Shown here: positions 14,111 to 38,097 of the stretch, one piece after another
Layout: every line of letters starts with the position of its first letter
How positions within the stretch are numbered: position 1 is the stretch's first letter
Source: Eledone cirrhosa
Lineage: Eukaryota
Direction of reading: 5' to 3'
Assembly (NCBI GenBank): GCA_964016885.1
Contig: CAXHJY010001225.1
Coordinates: 38,332-102,331 of the forward strand
Length of the DNA: 64,000 bases
The notes under the pieces: model-generated
What the model was told of the DNA's origin: nothing
Database searches by the model: none
What the model saw: only the letters and a program-made list of their open reading frames with translations
Made by a program: the position numbers and the translations under genes

Positions 14111-15380
14111 TGTTTCTTTTATTTGCCACCAGGGCATCAAAAGTGGGACAAGTACAAAGGGGGGAGTTTACACAAAAAGGCGTCCTCAATAAGGAGGAGG
14201 CAATAACAAAATATAAAAATAAAATAAAATATAACAAAAAATAAAATTTATAACAAAATCCTCAATAGAGAGGAGGCGCCTTGGGGGTCGCACACACCCC
14301 CGAAAAAAGTGTGCAACCCTTTTCCTCAGGAGCACAGAGAGGGGGTGCTCCCTCGTTCCTTCCTCTTTTCCACCTACAGGCTTATGTAAAGTGAAGGCCC
14401 ATTCACACGGGCCATTCTCGCCACTTTCACCCACCTTTCATAAAAACGACTGGGGTGGAGCACCTCTCTCTCCATCCTGATCCTTCTTCCGAAATGATAT
14501 CGGAAGAAACGGACCAGTTGTTGGCCAGAGAGAAAGGTGCCTGACCTCAGTCCTTTCAGACGCGTCCACCATACAACCTCTTTCGCCATGGCTATTACGC
14601 ACAGAAACACCGCCTCTGCTTCATCTTTGAATGGGGGAGGCGGCTTGATCATTACAATAGACTCGGTGGTCAACCGGATCGGTCCCACCCTTGACAGCAG
14701 TTGTTCGACATAGCCCCACAGATCGGCTACGCCCGAGCAGTGTACCAATGCGTGTGCAACGGTTTCCTCGTCGCACACGCATCTAGGACAGATCTTTTTG
14801 GCGGGGTCCCTACCCGGGCGCCCGTGTCTGTAGAGCCTTTCTCGAATGGGTAAAGACCCTCGGTAGCACTGCCAGGCCAGGGACTTCTGGAAGTTGTCCA
14901 TAGGTCCCGGGCTGAATGTCCTACCGAACAGGCTGGCCAGTTCGTCCTCCTCCATGTCTAGGGCTTCTCCGAGGGCGTCGTCGCACCTGCTGCGTACCAG
15001 CCCTCTATAGAATGTTGCGGTGGAGTCTCCACTGATAACCCGATCCGCCTGCCAGAGGGCGGTGAGCGCCTGGGCACACTCAGTGTGCCAGGCGCCCAGT
15101 TTTCTCGGTCTTTGCTTGACCCAGGATTGCAGCTCGGTGAGTGAGACGAGTCTGGGAAAGGTTCGTCTCACAAACGAGGCCCACACCGGTTGACCGGTGA
15201 GGAATACGTAGAGGTGCCGTAGCCTTAATGCGTGTTTACGCATCATTAGCCACGGCATCCCCAGCCCTCCTTTCGAAGGGTGTTGACAGCAGATGGATCT
15301 CCTCACCATAGGAGCCCGCCTCTTCCAAAGGAATTGGAAGAGTGCGCGCTCCATCTTGGTGAGGGTTTCCCTTGGGCATA
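14111..15380 (-). mobile_element. 5'-truncated Tx1/L1-type LINE inserted in a (GATA)n tract
   Basis: ORF 14374-~15380 with GGLGMP, LAWQCYRGSLPIRERL and the CCHC knuckle CPRC...ETVAHALVHC; AATAAA near the 3' end; (AGAT)n/(AGAC)n on both flanks. Confidence 0.85.
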
Positions 15381-15552
15381 GACAGACAGATACGTAGATA
15401 GATACATACATACATGCACATACAAACATACATACATACTTACATACATACATGCATACATACATCAAGAAATTCGTAGATACAAACATATATTCATGCA
15501 AGCATATATATATATATATGTTTGTTTCATTCATTAATTATATTATATATAA

Positions 15553-15617
<65 letters not shown>

Positions 15618-15619
<2 letters not shown>

Positions 15620-15807
15620 AAAGGAATTGTGGCAAGAAACCAGATGGACCATAACGCACCAGAATACTCAATACTTAGGGTATTAGAGTAGGAAATAGGA
15701 AAAAGTATGAACCCGACAGCAGAGCTCAAGCCGTTTCGACGGATATTTCAGTCCAGAAATAGCCGTCGAAACGGCTTGAGCTCTGCCGTCGGGGTCATAC
15801 TTTTTCC
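15618..15807. mobile_element. ~190-bp fold-back mini-element (half-HHR family), tail on the left
   Basis: Arms ~15695-15749 and 15756-15810; contains GAAACGGC-ttgagctct-GCCGTC; in (TA)n. Confidence 0.85.
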
Positions 15808-15823
15808 TATATATATATATATA

Positions 15824-15930
15824 TGAAAAATTTGGGGAGAAGAATACTGCATGGTTGCACATGGATTACATGTTATAAAATGAGTCCCTCATCAGTGATT
15901 TGCCAACGATCATTGGTATTTCATCGCATT
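15824..15930 (-). mobile_element. 3' fragment of the ~530-nt non-coding family
   Basis: Highly similar to 51298-51402. Confidence 0.75.
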
Positions 15931-16175
15931 ATATATATATATATATATATATTACATTTATTATTATTACTATATATATATATTACATTTATTATAATTA
16001 CTATATATATATATTACATTTATTATAATTACTATATATACATAGAGAGAGAACGAATGTGGTGCTGAGACAGAGGGGACCACCAATCATTGGTGTAGTC
16101 AATGAGTGGGGAACTGCAGGGCGGGTATGATATATGTAAAATTCCCAACCACGGCGCCAAGCGATCGGAAATTTA

Positions 16176-16266
<91 letters not shown>

Positions 16267-16437
16267 GGAAAATGTTTAACCCCGACGGCAGAGCTCACGC
16301 CGTTTCGACGGCTATGAGAAATAGCCGTCGAAACGGCTTGAGCTCTGCCGTCGGGGTTAAACATTTTCCTATTACCCACTCTACTACCTACTCTGTATGC
16401 GTTATGGTCCATCTGGTTCCTTACCACACTTCCTTCA
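16267..16437. mobile_element. Fold-back mini-element (half-HHR family), tail on the right
   Basis: Arms ~16264-16313 and ~16320-16371; same GAAACGGC...GCCGTC motif. Confidence 0.85.
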
Positions 16438-16454
16438 TTATATATATATATATA

Positions 16455-16544
16455 GTTATACTTGGGGAGGGTCATATTTGTGTAATATTGCCAGAATTAA
16501 TATTTGTTTCGACACACGATTTCATATAAAAAATCTCGCTAAAC
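16455..16544. mobile_element. 90-bp inverted-junction fragment of the Nematis-like PLE terminus
   Basis: 16455-16502 matches 28593-28640; 16499-16544 matches the reverse complement of 28547-28592; AATA microhomology at the junction. Confidence 0.85.
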
Positions 16545-16563
16545 TATACACATATATATATAC

Positions 16564-25282: not shown

Positions 25283-25570
25283 TGTCTGATTCTTTCCTCA
25301 CGCACACTTTGACCAGGTCGGATGGTCTTTATTCTCTCTCGTCTACGATTTCACAGAACTTATGTTCATTGATTTCAGGGACTTGACTCCTTCTTCCTCA
25401 CTTTTCGTTGCTTTACCATCTTTGATTGTTTACTGTCCGGCTCGTTCCCCTTATTTACGTGTCCCAACGACTTTCTTTAGCCGTTGCTCGCACCAACCGG
25501 AGGTATATAGTCTTTAAAGCGATGAAATACCAATGAAGGTTGGAAGATCACTGATGAAGGACTAAATTTA

Positions 25571-25574
<4 letters not shown>
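25283..25574 (+). mobile_element. Diverged 3' half of the ~530-nt non-coding family
   Basis: Colinear with the reverse complement of 53778-54050; ends ttattca|tata. Confidence 0.7.
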
Positions 25575-25612
<38 letters not shown>

Positions 25613-25750
25613 GAGGGATTCATTTTGAAACTGATTAGACCATTACTCATTAGAATACTCGATACATTAGGTAGTAGAGTACGGTTATATTATAAAGAGT
25701 CAGGGTTTCGAAGGCCGAGCTGTTGTCATATATATATATATATATATAAG

Positions 25751-28531: not shown

Positions 28532-28799
28532 ATATATATATATATAGTTTAGCGAGGTTTTTTATATGAAATCGTGTGTCGAAACAGATATTGTTATACT
28601 TGGGGAGGGTCATATTTGCGTAATATTGCCAGAATTAATAACAGAACACACTCACTGTTTGGTTGGTTTTCGCTTCTCGCTGTCTTTTATATCTGCGATC
28701 TAACTTACTCGGTCCTCAATGTTGCCATTGACTGACCGACGGTCAAAAATAATACAGATACAATATAGACACAAACACATATATATAGTTTACATAATT

Positions 28800-28845
28800 T
28801 ACATAAATCTTTCGTTGCACATCTGCAACATCGTCAGTGGTGCTA
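28800..28845 (-). ncRNA. Hammerhead core (weak stem I)
   Basis: CTGACGA-t-gttgca-gatg-tgcaac-GAAA-gatt-TA. Confidence 0.6.
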
Positions 28846-29365
28846 TATTCTTTGTTCCTCCTGTTGTGTTGTATGCCTACGCCATTTTTTATTCAGTCTG
28901 TCTATATATTTATTTATTTATTTGCTTGTTTGTTTATCTTATTTTATTTTGTCTTCTTTGCGCATGCGTTTGCGTGTGTGTATAGTGTTATGTGTGCTGT
29001 GTGACTAGTGTGTATAGTGTTGTGTCTGCTGGGTGGCTAGTGTGTGTTTATGTGCTTGTTGTTATTGTGCTTGTGTATGTATTTATTTATCTTATTTTAT
29101 TTTATTTTATTTACTTACTTATTTATACTTCTCTTAGGTCAGTGTTGTTTGTTTGGGTGTTGTTGTTGTTCCACTCATTCTTTCTGTTTAGCTTTGGTCT
29201 TCTAATTTCTATTTCACTGGCCTCTCTGATTTGCCTATCTGCTGGGTCATTCCTATGTTTAGATATTATTCTAATTTCTATGTTGTCTATGTTACCGTCA
29301 TGTTGTCGTCTAGCATGTTCGTATAGTACTGACCAATTTTTTTGTCCTTTTAGTTCCCCCCAGTG

Positions 29366-31155
29366 TTAGTCTATCCTTTCACCTATGCTACGAGCTGTCT
29401 CACCTATGTATGTTGTTGTCATGTTTCTGCAAGTACCCTCTGTACATCTTATGCTATAGACTACGTTTCTAGTTTTACAGTTTATCCGGGGGTTCACCTT
29501 ACATATGATACATTTCCTATTGGTACAGTGGGTTTTCTTAAAAGGGTAGGTTTTGCTGATCAGGGATTTTATGGTGGTTCCTGACTTTTCTACCACCTTT
29601 ATTTTTAAGTGGGTCTTTCTCAGGGCCTTTCTACACTGGTTAGCTAATTTCCCTCCAGGGGTGGCGTCCACAAACATGACACTCTGATATCTCTGGTTGT
29701 CGTACCATGATGTGGCCTTCCCTATCTTATGTCTAGCCCTATCTAAGCTATTCCATGATTTGCTCCTGTATAGTGGGCAAATTCCTTTCATGTCCAGTTC
29801 TATGAGGGTCTTATACTTTTCCATGGCTCCTTCGTATACTCTGACTCTGTCTCTTTGGTTGTAGCCAGAGAACTGCATGCGGTTGATGAAGTGTTGGATG
29901 TGTCCTTCCATTTCTGTTGGGTCGCACATGCTGGACACATTCTTCATCACTCGTACCAAATCTGCGATCAGAATATTAAACTTAGCACTACTGGACATTG
30001 CTGAGTGTTTGAGTATCAGGTATTTGGAGGCCATGGGCTTAGCATAGTGTGAGTGGAGAATTTGGGCTCTCTCGTCTATAGTGTTAATCCAGAGTTCTGT
30101 GTCTAATACAGGTAGTCTATTGTTAGGGTGTTTGGAAGGGAAGTCGATAGTTACAGTTATACTCTGGTGTATGGAATTAGCTATCTGCTGGATGCTTTCC
30201 ATCGTGCTACGTTCTAAATCAAACTTGTTAGTGCTCTCTAGTGGGGGTGTTCTTATAACTATATTGATATCGTCTACATAACGAGAGTACATGATGAGGT
30301 CTATGGAGCTTTCATTAAGGAGATCTTTAAGTCTCCTTTCCCACCATACCATGAAAAGGTTGGCAACATCACCAGCTATGCTGATGCCGATGGCTGCTCC
30401 CTCATTTTGGGTGTAGATTTTCTCATTGAACTTAAATATGTGGCCCTTTAGGGTAGTTTTGATACTAGCCCCTATTGCATGTGCGACCATTTTTCTTACC
30501 TGATCAGTATTTTGGGGGGTCCATATAGCTTTGGTCCACCCAATCCACTTTACTATGGGAGTCTTTTTAGCCATTGAGGTTATGGTGGGGGGTCTACCTC
30601 TTATAGGTCTACTAGGGCAGAAACATCTAAGGTCATGGCTGTCTATGTAGTCGGTGTCGTAGGTAAGTCTAAGTAGGAGGCCCAGTTCGTCTGTGTCGAC
30701 GTCGCAGAACTCCACCTCACTCTCAATGATCATCTCCACACATCTTTTCACAGCAAAATCAATGTTAATGGATGGGTACAGTGACACCACATCCATGCTG
30801 CCTATTATGCAGTTGGATAGGCTCCTGTTTTTGTTGCACTCACTGATTCTGCTGAGGAGGTCCTCTGTACTTTCACATACATCTGGGGACATCTTGATTA
30901 TGGGGCGTATAACCATTGAGAGGAAGTAGGAGATCCTGTAGTTGCTAGCTATATTAGCTCCGCATACGGGTCTTGTTGGTGGTCCTGTTGTCGGGTCGTC
31001 GACTGTCTTGTGGTCTTTGCGGAGCCCATACAAGGGTGGTATGCCATTGTTAGATGCCTGGAAGTTGTTGGCAGTGCGTCTGCTTGGCTTTAGGATGTCA
31101 GTCCACATCCTCATGTGAGCGTTGAGGATTTTTTCTCTCCCATCGTGTGGGAAAA
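29366..31155 (-). CDS. 5'-truncated PLE RT plus GIY-YIG ORF, open over ~590 codons
   Basis: PPLYGLRKDHK, RPVCGA, GSMDVVSLYPSI, GAAIG..AG..ANLFM, YSRYVDDI, LPVLD, YAKPMAS, C..C..CKTRNVVY..C..YIGETARSIGER. Confidence 0.85.
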
Positions 31156-31177
31156 AATGGCATACCACCCTTGTATG

Positions 31178-33060
31178 GGCATACCACACTTGTATGGGCT
31201 CCGCAAAGACCACAAGGCAGTCGACGACCCGACAACAGGACCACCAACAAGACCCGTATGCGGAGCTAATATAGCTAGCAACTACAGGATCTCCTACTTC
31301 CTCTCAATGGTTATACGCCCCATAATCAAGATGTCCCCAGATGTATGGGAAAGTACAGAGGACCTCCTCAGCAGAATCAGTGAGTGCAACAAAAACAGGA
31401 GCCTATCCAACTGCATAATAGGCAGCATGGATGTGGTGTCACTGTACCCATCCATTAACATTGATTTTGCTGTGAAAAGATGTGTGGAGATGATCATTGA
31501 GAGTGAGGTGGGGTTCTGTGACGTCGACACAGACGAACTGGGCCTCCTACTTAGACTTACCTACGACACCGACTACCTAGACAGCCATGACCTTAGATGT
31601 TTCTGCCCTAGTAGACATATAAGAGGTAGACCCCCACCATAACCTCAATGGCTAAAAAGACTCCCATAGGAAGGTGGATTGGGTGGACCAAAGCTATACG
31701 GACCTCCCCAAAACACTGATCAGGTAAGAAAAATGGTCGCACATGCAATAGGGGCTAGTATCAAAACTACCCTAAAGGGCCACATATTTAAGTTCAATGA
31801 GAAAATCTACACCCAAAATGAGGGAGCAGCCATCGGCGTCAGCATAGCTGGTGATGTTGCCAACCTTTTCATGGTATGGTGGGAAAGGAGACTTAAAGAT
31901 CTCCTTAATGAAAACTCCATAGACCTCATCATGTACTCTCGTTATGTAGACGATATCAATATAGTTATAAGACCACCCCCACTAGAGAGCACTAACAAGT
32001 TTGATTTAGAACGTAGTACGATGGAAAGCATCCAGCAGATAGCTAATTCCATACACCAGAGTATAACTGTAACTATCGACTTCCCTTCCAAACACCCTAA
32101 CAATAGACTACCAGTATTAGACACATAACTCTGGATTAACACTATAGACGAGAGAGCCCAAATTCTCCACTCACACTATGCTAAACCCATGGCCTCCAAA
32201 TCTCCAAATACCTGATACTCAAAAACTCAGCAATGTTCAGTAGTGCTAAGTTTAATATTCTGATCGCAGATTTGGTACGAGTGATGAAGAATGTGTCCAG
32301 CATGTGCGACCCAACAGAAATGGAAGGACACATCCAACACTTCATCAACCGCATGCAGTTCTCTGGCTACAACCAAAGAGACAGAGTCAGAGTATACGAA
32401 GGAGCCATGGAAAAGTATAAGACCCTCATAGAACTGGACATGAAAGGAATTTGCCCACTATACAGGAGCAAATCATGGAATAGCTTAGATAAGGCTAGAC
32501 ATAAGATAGGGAAGGCCACATCATGGTACGACAACCAGAGATATCAGAGTGTCATGTTTGTGGACGCCACCCCTGGAGGGAAATTAGCTAACCAGTGTAG
32601 AAAGGCCCTGAGAAAGACCCACTTAAAAATAAAGGTGGCAGAAAAGCCAGGAACCACCATAAAATCCCTGATCAGCAAAACCTACCCTTTTAAGAAAACC
32701 CACTGTACCAATAGGAAATGTATCATATGTAAGGTGAAACCTCGGATAAACTGTAAAACTAGAAACGTAGTCTATAGCATAAGATGTACAGAGGGCACTT
32801 GCAGAAACATGAAAAACAACATACATAGGTGAGACAGCTCGTAGCATAGGTGAAAGGATAGACCAACACTGGGGGGAACAAAAAGGACGAAAAAAACGGG
32901 TCAGTACTACACGAACATGCTAGACAACAACATGACGGTAACATAAACAACATAGAAATTAGAATAATATCTAAACATAGGAATGACCCAGCAGATAGGC
33001 AAATCAGAGAGGCCAGTGAAATAGAAATTAGAAGACCAAAGCTAAACAGAAAGAATGAGT
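31178..33060 (+). pseudogene. Second, frameshifted copy of the same RT/GIY-YIG ORF
   Basis: ORF pieces 31115-31642, 31679-32128 and 32233-32832 are near-identical to the minus-strand ORF. Confidence 0.9.
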
Positions 33061-33387
33061 GGAACAACAACAACACCCAAACAAACAACACTGACCTACG
33101 AGAAGTATAAATAAGTAAGTAAATAAAATAAAATAAAATAAGATAAATAAATACATACACAAGCACAATAACAACAAGCACATAAACACACACTAGCCAC
33201 CCAGCAGACACAACACTATACACACTAGTCACACAGCACACATAACACTATACACACACGCAAACGCATGCGCAAAGAAGACAAAATAAAATAAGATAAA
33301 CAAACAAGCAAATAAATAAATAAATATATAGACAGACTGAATAAAAAATGGCGTAGACATACAACACCACAGGCGGAACAAAGAATA

Positions 33388-33432
33388 TAGCACCACTGAC
33401 GATGTTGCAGATGTGCAACGAAAGATTTATGT
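33388..33432 (+). ncRNA. Hammerhead core (weak stem I)
   Basis: CTGACGA at 33396, stem II gttgca/tgcaac, GAAA at 33420. Confidence 0.6.
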
Positions 33433-33636
33433 AAATTATGTAAACTATATATATGTGTTTGTGTCTATATTGTATCTGTATTATTTTTGACCGTCGGTCA
33501 GTCAATGGCAACATTGAGGACCGAGTAAGTTAGATTGCAAATATAAAAGACAGCGAGAAGCGAAAACCAACCAAACAGTGAGTGTGTTCTGTTATTAATT
33601 CTGGCAATATTACGCAAATATGACCCTCCCCAAGTA

Positions 33637-33749
<113 letters not shown>

Positions 33750-35225: not shown

Positions 35226-35290
35226 TTTTTCCATTCTGATGATTGAAAGCAAATTTGTTTGCTTTCAAGAAACCACTGGTAAATGAAATA
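35226..35290 (+). ncRNA. Type I hammerhead ribozyme
   Basis: catt-CTGATGA-ttgaaagcaaa...tttgctttcaa-GAAA-ccactgg-TA-aatg. Confidence 0.9.
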
Positions 35291-37905: not shown

Positions 37906-38094
37906 ACGAAGGAGGTGTGGTAAGGAACCAGAAGGACCATAACGCACCAGATTACTCAATACTTAGGGTAGTAGAGTGGGTAATAGGGAAATGTCGTGAC
38001 CCTGATGGCAGTGCTCCAGCCGTTGCGACGGCTATTTCTGGACCAGAAATAGCCGTCGAAATGGCTCGAGCTCTGCCGTTGGGGTCAAATATTT

Positions 38095-38097
<3 letters not shown>
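37906..38097. mobile_element. Fold-back mini-element (half-HHR family), tail on the left
   Basis: Apex gacggctatttctgg-a-ccagaaatagccgtc; homologous to 15618 and 16267. Confidence 0.85.

What the first reader, a model, noticed from the sequence alone, without database searches (positions are those of the whole stretch)
15618..16437. ~180-bp mini-palindromes folded at hammerhead stem II (also 37906-38097)
Seen: three copies carry only the 3' half of an HHR (GAAACGGC-loop-GCCGTC, a strong stem III with GUC; slightly decayed in the 37906 copy), mirrored around the hairpin gacggctatttc..gaaatagccgtc. CUGANGA is replaced by the mirror of GAAA. The tail is on the left in two copies and on the right in one, and the apex differs slightly between copies. 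Inference: RT stalls at stem II, whose self-complementarity joins the two cDNAs or lets one self-prime, repeatedly generating MITE-like palindromes from an RNA element.
Basis: partly seen in the sequence, partly recalled or inferred. Interest (0 to 1): 0.7.

Follow-up and report, generated by a model that had tools for sequence, protein, structure and literature searches.

The report
Penelope stubs marking the RNA start
These three hairpins belong to a family of over ten thousand short back-to-back stubs of a Penelope-like jumping gene, and they fold where they do most likely because the element's capped RNA begins inside its own self-cutting ribozyme and the copying enzyme runs off that end, not because it stalls at the ribozyme's hairpin.

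Summary
The three palindromes are real. They belong to a family with at least 16,246 tailed copies genome-wide. The parent is a ~3.1-kb Hydra-type Penelope-like element (PLE) with a complete type I hammerhead, whose core is mostly UUGANAA and rarely CUGAGGA. Each mini is two head-to-head arms, ending at +61 or +141 in (TA)n: the published PLE inverted-copy-plus-tail layout.

The apex hairpin is a mirror product, not native stem II. Of 89 arms reaching +3, 66 stop within -3..+3 of one base (+1, an initiator-like TTAGTCC). Stops at the base of stem II are rare, and 16 of 17 ORF-bearing units read through. An untemplated G precedes +1 (15 of 22), but is rare in read-through copies (2 of 32 non-T bases).

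Best reading (0.65): both target strands prime near the 5' end of a capped sense RNA, run off the cap and are end-joined. The stall/self-priming idea is not supported, and MITE is rejected. No RNA data were found. The scan reached this reading before on other DNA of this genome. New variant of a known kind.

The parts
15618..15749 (-). Copy 1, long (tailed) arm: parent positions +7 to about +141
   Evidence: numbering from parent copy L183
15750..15807 (+). Copy 1, short arm: starts exactly at parent +1 (AGTCCAG); stem II 3' strand, GAAA, stem III, GUC; ends at the internal TA near +60
16267..16315 (-). Copy 2, short arm, 5' end at +10
16317..16437 (+). Copy 2, long (tailed) arm, 5' end at +6 (read by eye; the script gave +12), with two small deletions in the tail; one extra G at 16316 between the arms
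37906..38043 (-). Copy 3, long (tailed) arm, 5' end at +2, more diverged
38043..38097 (+). Copy 3, short arm, 5' end at +4, sharing 1 nt with the long arm
15540..15617 (.). (TA)n-rich target flank left of copy 1; all three copies have (TA)n on both sides, so no target-site duplication can be defined
   Evidence: 84 of 85 tail ends and 54 of 57 scored short-arm ends abut TA runs

Best explanation
Each palindrome is two short head-to-head copies of the front end of a Hydra-type Penelope-like retrotransposon, likely made when both cut strands of a (TA)n target prime reverse transcription at two internal sites (+61 and +141) near the 5' end of a probably capped sense RNA, run off that end at +1 and are then joined. 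Shown: the parent element, its complete hammerhead, the two fixed 3' ends, the (TA)n target, the sharp pile-up of 5' ends at +1, the excess untemplated G at -1, and variable apexes with both arms from one subfamily. Inferred: +1 is a Pol II start (initiator-like TTAGTCC) and the G is the copied cap; both strands prime (by analogy with the in vitro Anolis PLE); end-joining with 0-7 nt overlaps or small insertions closes the apex. Because +1 lies inside stem II, downstream of the YUGANRA half-core, such an RNA would begin with only the 3' half of the ribozyme. That is why the minis lack CUGANGA and appear folded at stem II.
For: Parent with pLTR-ORF, RWR, DKT, YRDD, CxCx5C, GIY-YIG, CxxC/CxH. 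Native hammerhead fold. 2,289 copies with the YTGANRA half-core. Exact word counts fall about 8-fold from 20,812 downstream of +1 to 2,492 upstream. 66 of 89 arms stop at -3..+3, mode +1 (24 of 157). Independent Logan contigs have loose ends at +1, +61 and +141. Base at -1 not explained by the partner arm: G 15, C 7, A 0 of 22 by script (p = 9e-4); G 31, A 5, C 4 by hand in the first 100 of 3,825 matches. In read-through copies the non-T base at -1 is G in only 2 of 32. Solo arms also start at +1 +/- 2. Copies with one arm full to about +1 and the tail arm cut at +43 to +95 (L053, L065, L072, L114, L131) need two primed cDNAs. Literature: two internal RT starts with both strands extended (PMC11167929); internal promoter in the Penelope pLTR (PMC2377424); untemplated G as cap trace in L1 and SVA (PMC4859970).
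Against: No RNA evidence was obtained. Full-length copies do not pile up at +1 (1 of 17), so a simple mRNA starting at +1 and primed at its 3' end is not their main source; this needs a second template class (tandem read-through, circle or strand jump). T, the native base, is still the commonest base at -1 (7,270 vs G 3,236 and A+C 2,703), and about half of the G cases can be explained by the partner arm (13 of 28). Against plain background, G is enriched after ATATATA (18 of 48 vs 0.21, p = 0.008) but not after TATATAT (67 of 78 vs 0.88, p = 0.77); both are significant only against a microhomology-conditioned background. The +1 base lies inside a weak upper helix of stem II, so structure may contribute. 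A second PLE family shows only a weak cluster of 5' ends (17 of 30 read through). The commonest apex (+1 joined to +7) is not explained by microhomology.
Confidence: 0.65

Rival explanations
1. The RNA has a fixed 5' end at +1 made by processing (a nuclease cut, recapping or another cleavage), not by transcription initiation; the G comes from the RT adding an untemplated C at any template end.
For: Everything that shows a fixed 5' end fits equally. ORF-bearing copies read through +1, as expected if primary transcripts start further upstream.
Against: +1 fits the initiator consensus YYANWYY (consensus recalled). The predicted hammerhead cut is at +41, not +1. Penelope and Chlamys-3 start inside the pLTR.
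Confidence: 0.14
2. One reading: RT stalls in stem II of a longer RNA, and stem II complementarity joins the cDNAs or lets one self-prime.
For: The apex lies within the extended stem II; +1 is in its upper helix. A minor group of arms ends at -26..-30, next to the native 5' strand (5 of 157).
Against: Lowest stop rate across the main stem; single-base mode with untemplated G; native loop absent from most apexes; 16 of 17 long units read through (Fisher p = 2e-9 against 95 of 118 minis stopping at -3..+10); asymmetric and solo copies exist.
Confidence: 0.1
3. Head-to-head palindromes arise by self-priming on an antisense RNA template, as proposed for rotifer Penelope elements.
For: Proposed in PMC3846280 (passages) to explain head-to-head palindromes.
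Against: The untemplated G sits at the 5' end of the sense strand; both arms have fixed sense-3' ends at TA; apexes are variable and often asymmetric.
Confidence: 0.05
4. A DNA-transposon MITE amplified from master palindromes, with fixed TIRs and TSDs.
For: High copy number, short length, hairpin shape, TA target.
Against: The sequence is the pLTR/5' leader of an RT-GIY-YIG element. One end has a ~80-nt unpaired tail, so the termini are not inverted repeats. There are 20 apexes in 29 copies, and the same apex recurs in different subfamilies. A continuum up to multi-kb palindromes exists.
Confidence: 0.02

Closest known systems
Hydra clade of C-terminal EN+ Penelope-like elements (Craig et al. 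2021, PMC8557442; section 11 and passages read)
   Same: RWK-like (RWR) and DKT motifs, CxCx5C linker, CxxC and CxH around E/N, (TA)n target, hammerhead in the pLTR, inverted 5'-truncated copy with a tail on one end.
   Different: Unit ~3.1 kb (generally <3 kb in the paper); tail ~80 nt, not 30-40; hammerhead core mostly U3-A8. About 89% of tailed copies (76 of 85) are stubs whose tail arm ends downstream of -11; I saw no such class in the passages read.
Poseidon PLE of Anolis (Frangieh et al. 2024, PMC11167929; parts 1-2 of 4 read)
   Same: Two internal RT start sites defining the tail, both target strands extended, AT-rich target, ribozyme upstream of the start sites.
   Different: In vitro with defined RNAs; no fixed upstream end or cap trace described in the parts read. 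Here the genomic copies record such an end.
Penelope of Drosophila virilis (Schostak et al. 2008, PMC2377424; passages read)
   Same: Transcription starts inside the pLTR from an internal promoter; tandem plus inverted structure.
   Different: There the start lies 46 bp upstream of an intron whose 3' end abuts hammerhead helix I, so upstream of the ribozyme. Here the inferred start is inside stem II. No RGACGTGY DPE is visible at +28..+35 (by eye).
Metazoan non-LTR retrozymes (bioRxiv 10.64898/2026.07.22.740005; part 1 of 5 and passages read)
   Same: Short, non-coding, PLE-derived, hammerhead-related.
   Different: Retrozymes are tandem arrays with a complete ribozyme in each unit; these are inverted pairs with half a ribozyme.
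L1 twin priming and cap-derived 5' G (review PMC4859970; passages read)
   Same: Two primed cDNAs joined with small indels; untemplated G at full-length 5' ends.
   Different: L1 twin priming copies two different parts of one RNA, whereas here both arms copy the same 5' segment, which gives a palindrome.

Membership tests
Penelope-like element (EN+) | Single ORF with RT and C-terminal GIY-YIG | tested here: met
   YRDD and VIY..YIG motifs in order in natural, frameshifted copies. 828 homologues at E <= 1e-10, the best 120 mostly ~700 aa. Pfam gave only a weak GIY-YIG hit (E 0.085) and no RT family, so the RT call rests on motifs.
Penelope-like element (EN+) | pLTR/partial tandem, inverted 5'-truncated copy, one-sided tail | tested here: met
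Hydra clade | RWK-type and DKT motifs | tested here: met
   RLRWR (R for K) and SDKTG in L161 and L183
Hydra clade | CxCx5C linker; CxxC and CxH around E and N; no CCHH | tested here: met
   CNCPDRSTC, CNLCSEE, ACKH; absence of CCHH judged by eye only
Hydra clade | (TA)n insertion | tested here: met
   84 of 85 tail ends
Hydra clade | Phylogenetic placement with reference Hydra RTs | not tested
   reference sequences (paper supplement) not fetched
Type I hammerhead ribozyme (parent) | Three stems around C/U3-UGAN-G/A8-A, GAAA and NUH | tested here: met
   Fold of L183. First 100 of 2,289 matches: U3-A8 86, C3-A8 14, none G8. CUGAGGA in 3 family copies. The U3-A8 core is published for Schistosoma PLEs (PMC4209133).
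Type I hammerhead ribozyme (parent) | Self-cleavage activity | not testable with these tools
   needs an assay
Type I hammerhead ribozyme (the minis) | 5' half-core present | tested here: not met
   absent in all three window copies; 0 matches
MITE | Fixed TIRs at both termini, uniform size, fixed TSD, DNA-transposase partner | tested here: not met
   one-sided tail, variable apex, RT parent; TSD undefinable inside (TA)n
Non-LTR retrozyme | Tandem monomers each with a complete hammerhead | tested here: not met
   inverted half-ribozyme pairs
Pol II capped start | Capped RNA 5' ends at +1 | tested here: inconclusive
   only genomic proxies; no RNA reads available

The most novel reading that the evidence does not exclude
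The minis are the PLE equivalent of retroviral strong-stop DNA. The RNA starts inside the ribozyme (+1), so only its 3' copy can self-cut (+41), leaving +1..+41 repeated at both RNA ends. RT starts at +61/+141 near the cap, runs off, and must jump to the 3' repeat to make long or tandem copies and regenerate the pLTR; failed jumps are joined into palindromes. For: same-sense contig joints landing on +1/+2 from -174, +223 and +279, and seamless read-through in long copies. Against: no cap-G trace in read-through copies (2 of 32, no insertions).
Probability: 0.2. Interest if true: 0.8.

Novelty: new variant of a known kind. Interest (0 to 1): 0.48.

Why it matters
How Penelope-like elements replicate is open: which strand is the template, what the ribozyme is for, and why insertions are tandem or inverted. 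Here more than ten thousand natural insertions mark, to the base, two RT start sites and one upstream stop with a cap-like G. If right, the template is the capped sense RNA, priming happens near its 5' end in vivo, and the promoter splits the ribozyme so that the 5' copy cannot cut. Each point can be tested with one RACE experiment and one in vitro assay. It also warns that such PLE stubs can be misannotated as MITEs.

Tried and rejected
- The repeat finder and Rfam on the window were swamped by (TA)n. The 150 Rfam rows listed of 431 were all sub-threshold miRNA models.
The relaxed pattern gave 10 hits against 4 control hits; 4 were family copies with the core in place, and 1 was a mirror arm next to a chance CTGATGA.
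- RNA: no RNA holder listed. Only contigs of unknown kind from one sample were laid; they may be the sample of the assembly.
- PDB sequence search: 0 hits. Pfam did not name the RT.
- Strand-transfer test: no excess G or insertion at -1 in read-through copies.
- Exact +1/+1 junctions with 2-nt spacers (first 50 of 59 loci, hand tally): 24 A/T-only, 18 with G next to +1, 6 with G before the native T, 2 not cap-compatible. Weak support only.
- Second PLE family as a control: inconclusive.
- The first automated arm parse was contaminated by TA runs in the references and was redone. A few arms with internal deletions are still mis-called, which moves ends downstream.
- Fisher's test used a miscount (1 of 18); the corrected value is.
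- Splice-acceptor origin of +1: rejected, since ends fall on the A of AG and are not joined to an exon.
- Hammerhead cut as apex: only 4 of 157 arm ends at +41/+42.
- Assembly artefact: disfavoured, since separately assembled contigs show the same ends and opposite-strand joints.
- Literature searches for a published description of cap-ended PLE mini-palindromes found none. The library lacks most subscription papers and Repbase notes, and the supplements of PMC8557442, PMC11167929 and the bioRxiv preprint were not seen.

Full report
Observation. They are not chance: the core 17-mer has 20,812 exact matches in the 3.0-Gb genome and the tail 21-mer 16,246, against 0 for the reversed controls. 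These exact counts are lower bounds. The host is an unnamed animal; an earlier scan note calls it octopus, which I did not test.

Parent. Two of the first 30 loci (one 3.8-kb palindrome, L002/L003) had unmirrored sequence upstream, leading into an ORF with YRDD and GIY-YIG motifs. Six further long loci and 30 loci holding the ORF's 5' part gave the layout: pLTR, leader, ATG at +232, ORF, a 3' UTR of about 740 nt, pLTR; unit about 3.1 kb. Here +1 is the A of AGTCCAG. The motifs RLRWR, SDKTG, CxCx5C, CxxC and CxH and the (TA)n target match the Hydra clade as defined in PMC8557442 section 11. I built no tree, and Pfam did not name the RT.

Ribozyme. The parent folds into a type I hammerhead with stem I ACCCC/GGGGU, a 9-bp stem II plus a weak upper helix, stem III and a predicted cut after +41. 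The native 5' strand of stem II is GTTCGGCTATTT, and the core is mostly UUGANAA: 86 of the first 100 of 2,289 matches are U3-A8, 14 are C3-A8 and none has G8. CUGAGGA occurs in 3 copies. The U3-A8 core is published (PMC4209133, passages). So the hairpin at the centre of the minis is the mirror of stem II's 3' strand.

Architecture. Minis and multi-kb palindromes share the same ends: one arm stops near +61 (37 of 72 mirror arms at +60/+61; most others are called at +51..+59 because of subfamily differences) and the other near +141, both at TA. This is the known inverted copy with a one-sided tail (PMC8557442). The Anolis PLE work explains that tail by two internal RT start sites, with both target strands extended (PMC11167929, parts 1-2 of 4). 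Both arms carry the same subfamily marker in 50 of 52 scorable copies (0.5 expected). There are 20 apex sequences among 29 parsed, and some recur across subfamilies. The minis are therefore made repeatedly and are not copies of a master MITE.

Where the arms stop. I scored 85 tailed loci: the first 84 of the 100 listed matches on contig C1, plus one further match in a fetched stretch. They gave 157 arms. Stop rates per base were 0.006 over +11..+44 (26 of 144), 0.039 over +4..+10 (29 of 118), 0.20 over -3..+3 (66 of 89) and 0.016 over -60..-11 (9 of 16); the mode is +1 (24 arms). The window's arms end at +7/+1, +6/+10 and +2/+4. Genome word counts drop from 20,812 to 2,492 across this point. 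Contigs of two unnamed runs from one sample show loose ends at +1, +61 and +141. Of 30 ORF-bearing units, 17 reach +10; 16 read through and 1 stops at +5 (Fisher p = 2e-9 against the minis). A structural stall should act at the stem's base and on long copies too. It does neither, although long copies may be a selected processive subset.

Cap-like G. The native base at -1 is T. Genome counts are T 7,270, G 3,236 and A+C 2,703, with A 12 of the first 100 of the last group. Among all 58 non-T arms in the first 44 Mb of C1, 33 were explained by the partner arm, 1 was a native variant and 2 were the partner's own G; the remaining 22 were G 15, C 7, A 0 (p = 9e-4). A hand tally of the first 100 of 3,825 matches gave G 31, A 5, C 4; that pattern excluded C at -13. 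In read-through copies the non-T base is C 22, A 8, G 2, so ordinary mutation does not make the G. Arms abutting (TA)n gave mixed support: G 18 of 48 against 0.21 background (p = 0.008), and G 67 of 78 against 0.88 (p = 0.77); both are significant against a background conditioned on a following A. Untemplated G is the accepted trace of a copied cap in L1 and SVA (PMC4859970, passages). TTAGTCC fits the initiator consensus (recalled), and Penelope has an internal pLTR promoter (PMC2377424, passages).

Mechanism. Shown: parent, ends, target, pile-up, G excess. Inferred: a capped sense RNA starts at +1 inside the ribozyme; the endonuclease cuts both strands of (TA)n; one strand primes at +141 and the other at +61; both run to the cap; the ends are trimmed and joined. 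Copies with one full arm and a tail arm cut far downstream, and solo arms starting at +1, fit this and do not fit snap-back. It favours a sense template over the antisense self-priming proposed in PMC3846280 (passages). Open: why long copies rarely stop at +1 (tandem read-through RNA, circles or a strand jump), whether minis are themselves transcribed, and why +1 joined to +7 is the commonest apex. A second PLE family in the window shows only weak clustering (13 of 30 stop within 40 nt upstream of the anchor), so generality is not shown here.

Novelty. The element class, the inverted-plus-tail layout, internal priming and the U3-A8 core are published. I found no paper describing cap-ended mini-palindromes or a start site inside a PLE hammerhead (searches; PMC13282606 and the retrozyme preprint checked by passages). 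Supplements were not seen and may bear on this. I noted the start-site idea; one search then showed that three unreviewed scan reports had reached the same reading on other DNA of this genome. They are not independent evidence. Verdict: a real feature, a new variant of a known kind, interest 0.48.

Noticed in passing
window 28548-33640: 5.1-kb head-to-head palindrome of the 3' part of a different PLE family (RT ORF 29366-31303 minus, RVT_1 E 1e-4), tail on the left arm only, (TA)n flanks; hammerhead-like CTGACGA-stem-GAAA near 33396.
   Followed up: partly
window 16454-16545: A stub palindrome of that second family abuts copy 2 through a shared (TA)n run; the family has at least 1,664 matches of a 17-nt word.
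   Followed up: partly
window 25545-25710: CTGATGA ... GAAA hammerhead-like end interrupted by a (TA)n run, followed by a tail about 80% like the minis' tail.
   Followed up: no
window 35236-35275: CTGATGA, a 12-bp hairpin and GAAA: candidate hammerhead core of another element.
   Followed up: no
window 14374-15537 (minus): 387-aa frame with zf-RVT (E 1e-5): likely a LINE 3' fragment.
   Followed up: no
G000:C3:187250084-187250327: Four (TA)n-G-+1 starts at 74-nt spacing: a tandem array of the short arm.
   Followed up: no
320 arms in stored loci, parent +7..+51: Sense-strand A>G changes (80 at 10 sites) are about twice T>C (38 at 9 sites); could be RNA editing or subfamily variants.
   Followed up: no
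L165, L166, L180, L191: ORF-bearing units whose 5' ends fall at +59/+60 and +74/+75, the first pair at the short RT start site.
   Followed up: no
L183:1369-1510: The tail holds a short upstream ORF (ATG, stop after 13 codons), and a pyrimidine tract ending in CAG precedes the main ATG: possible leader intron.
   Followed up: no
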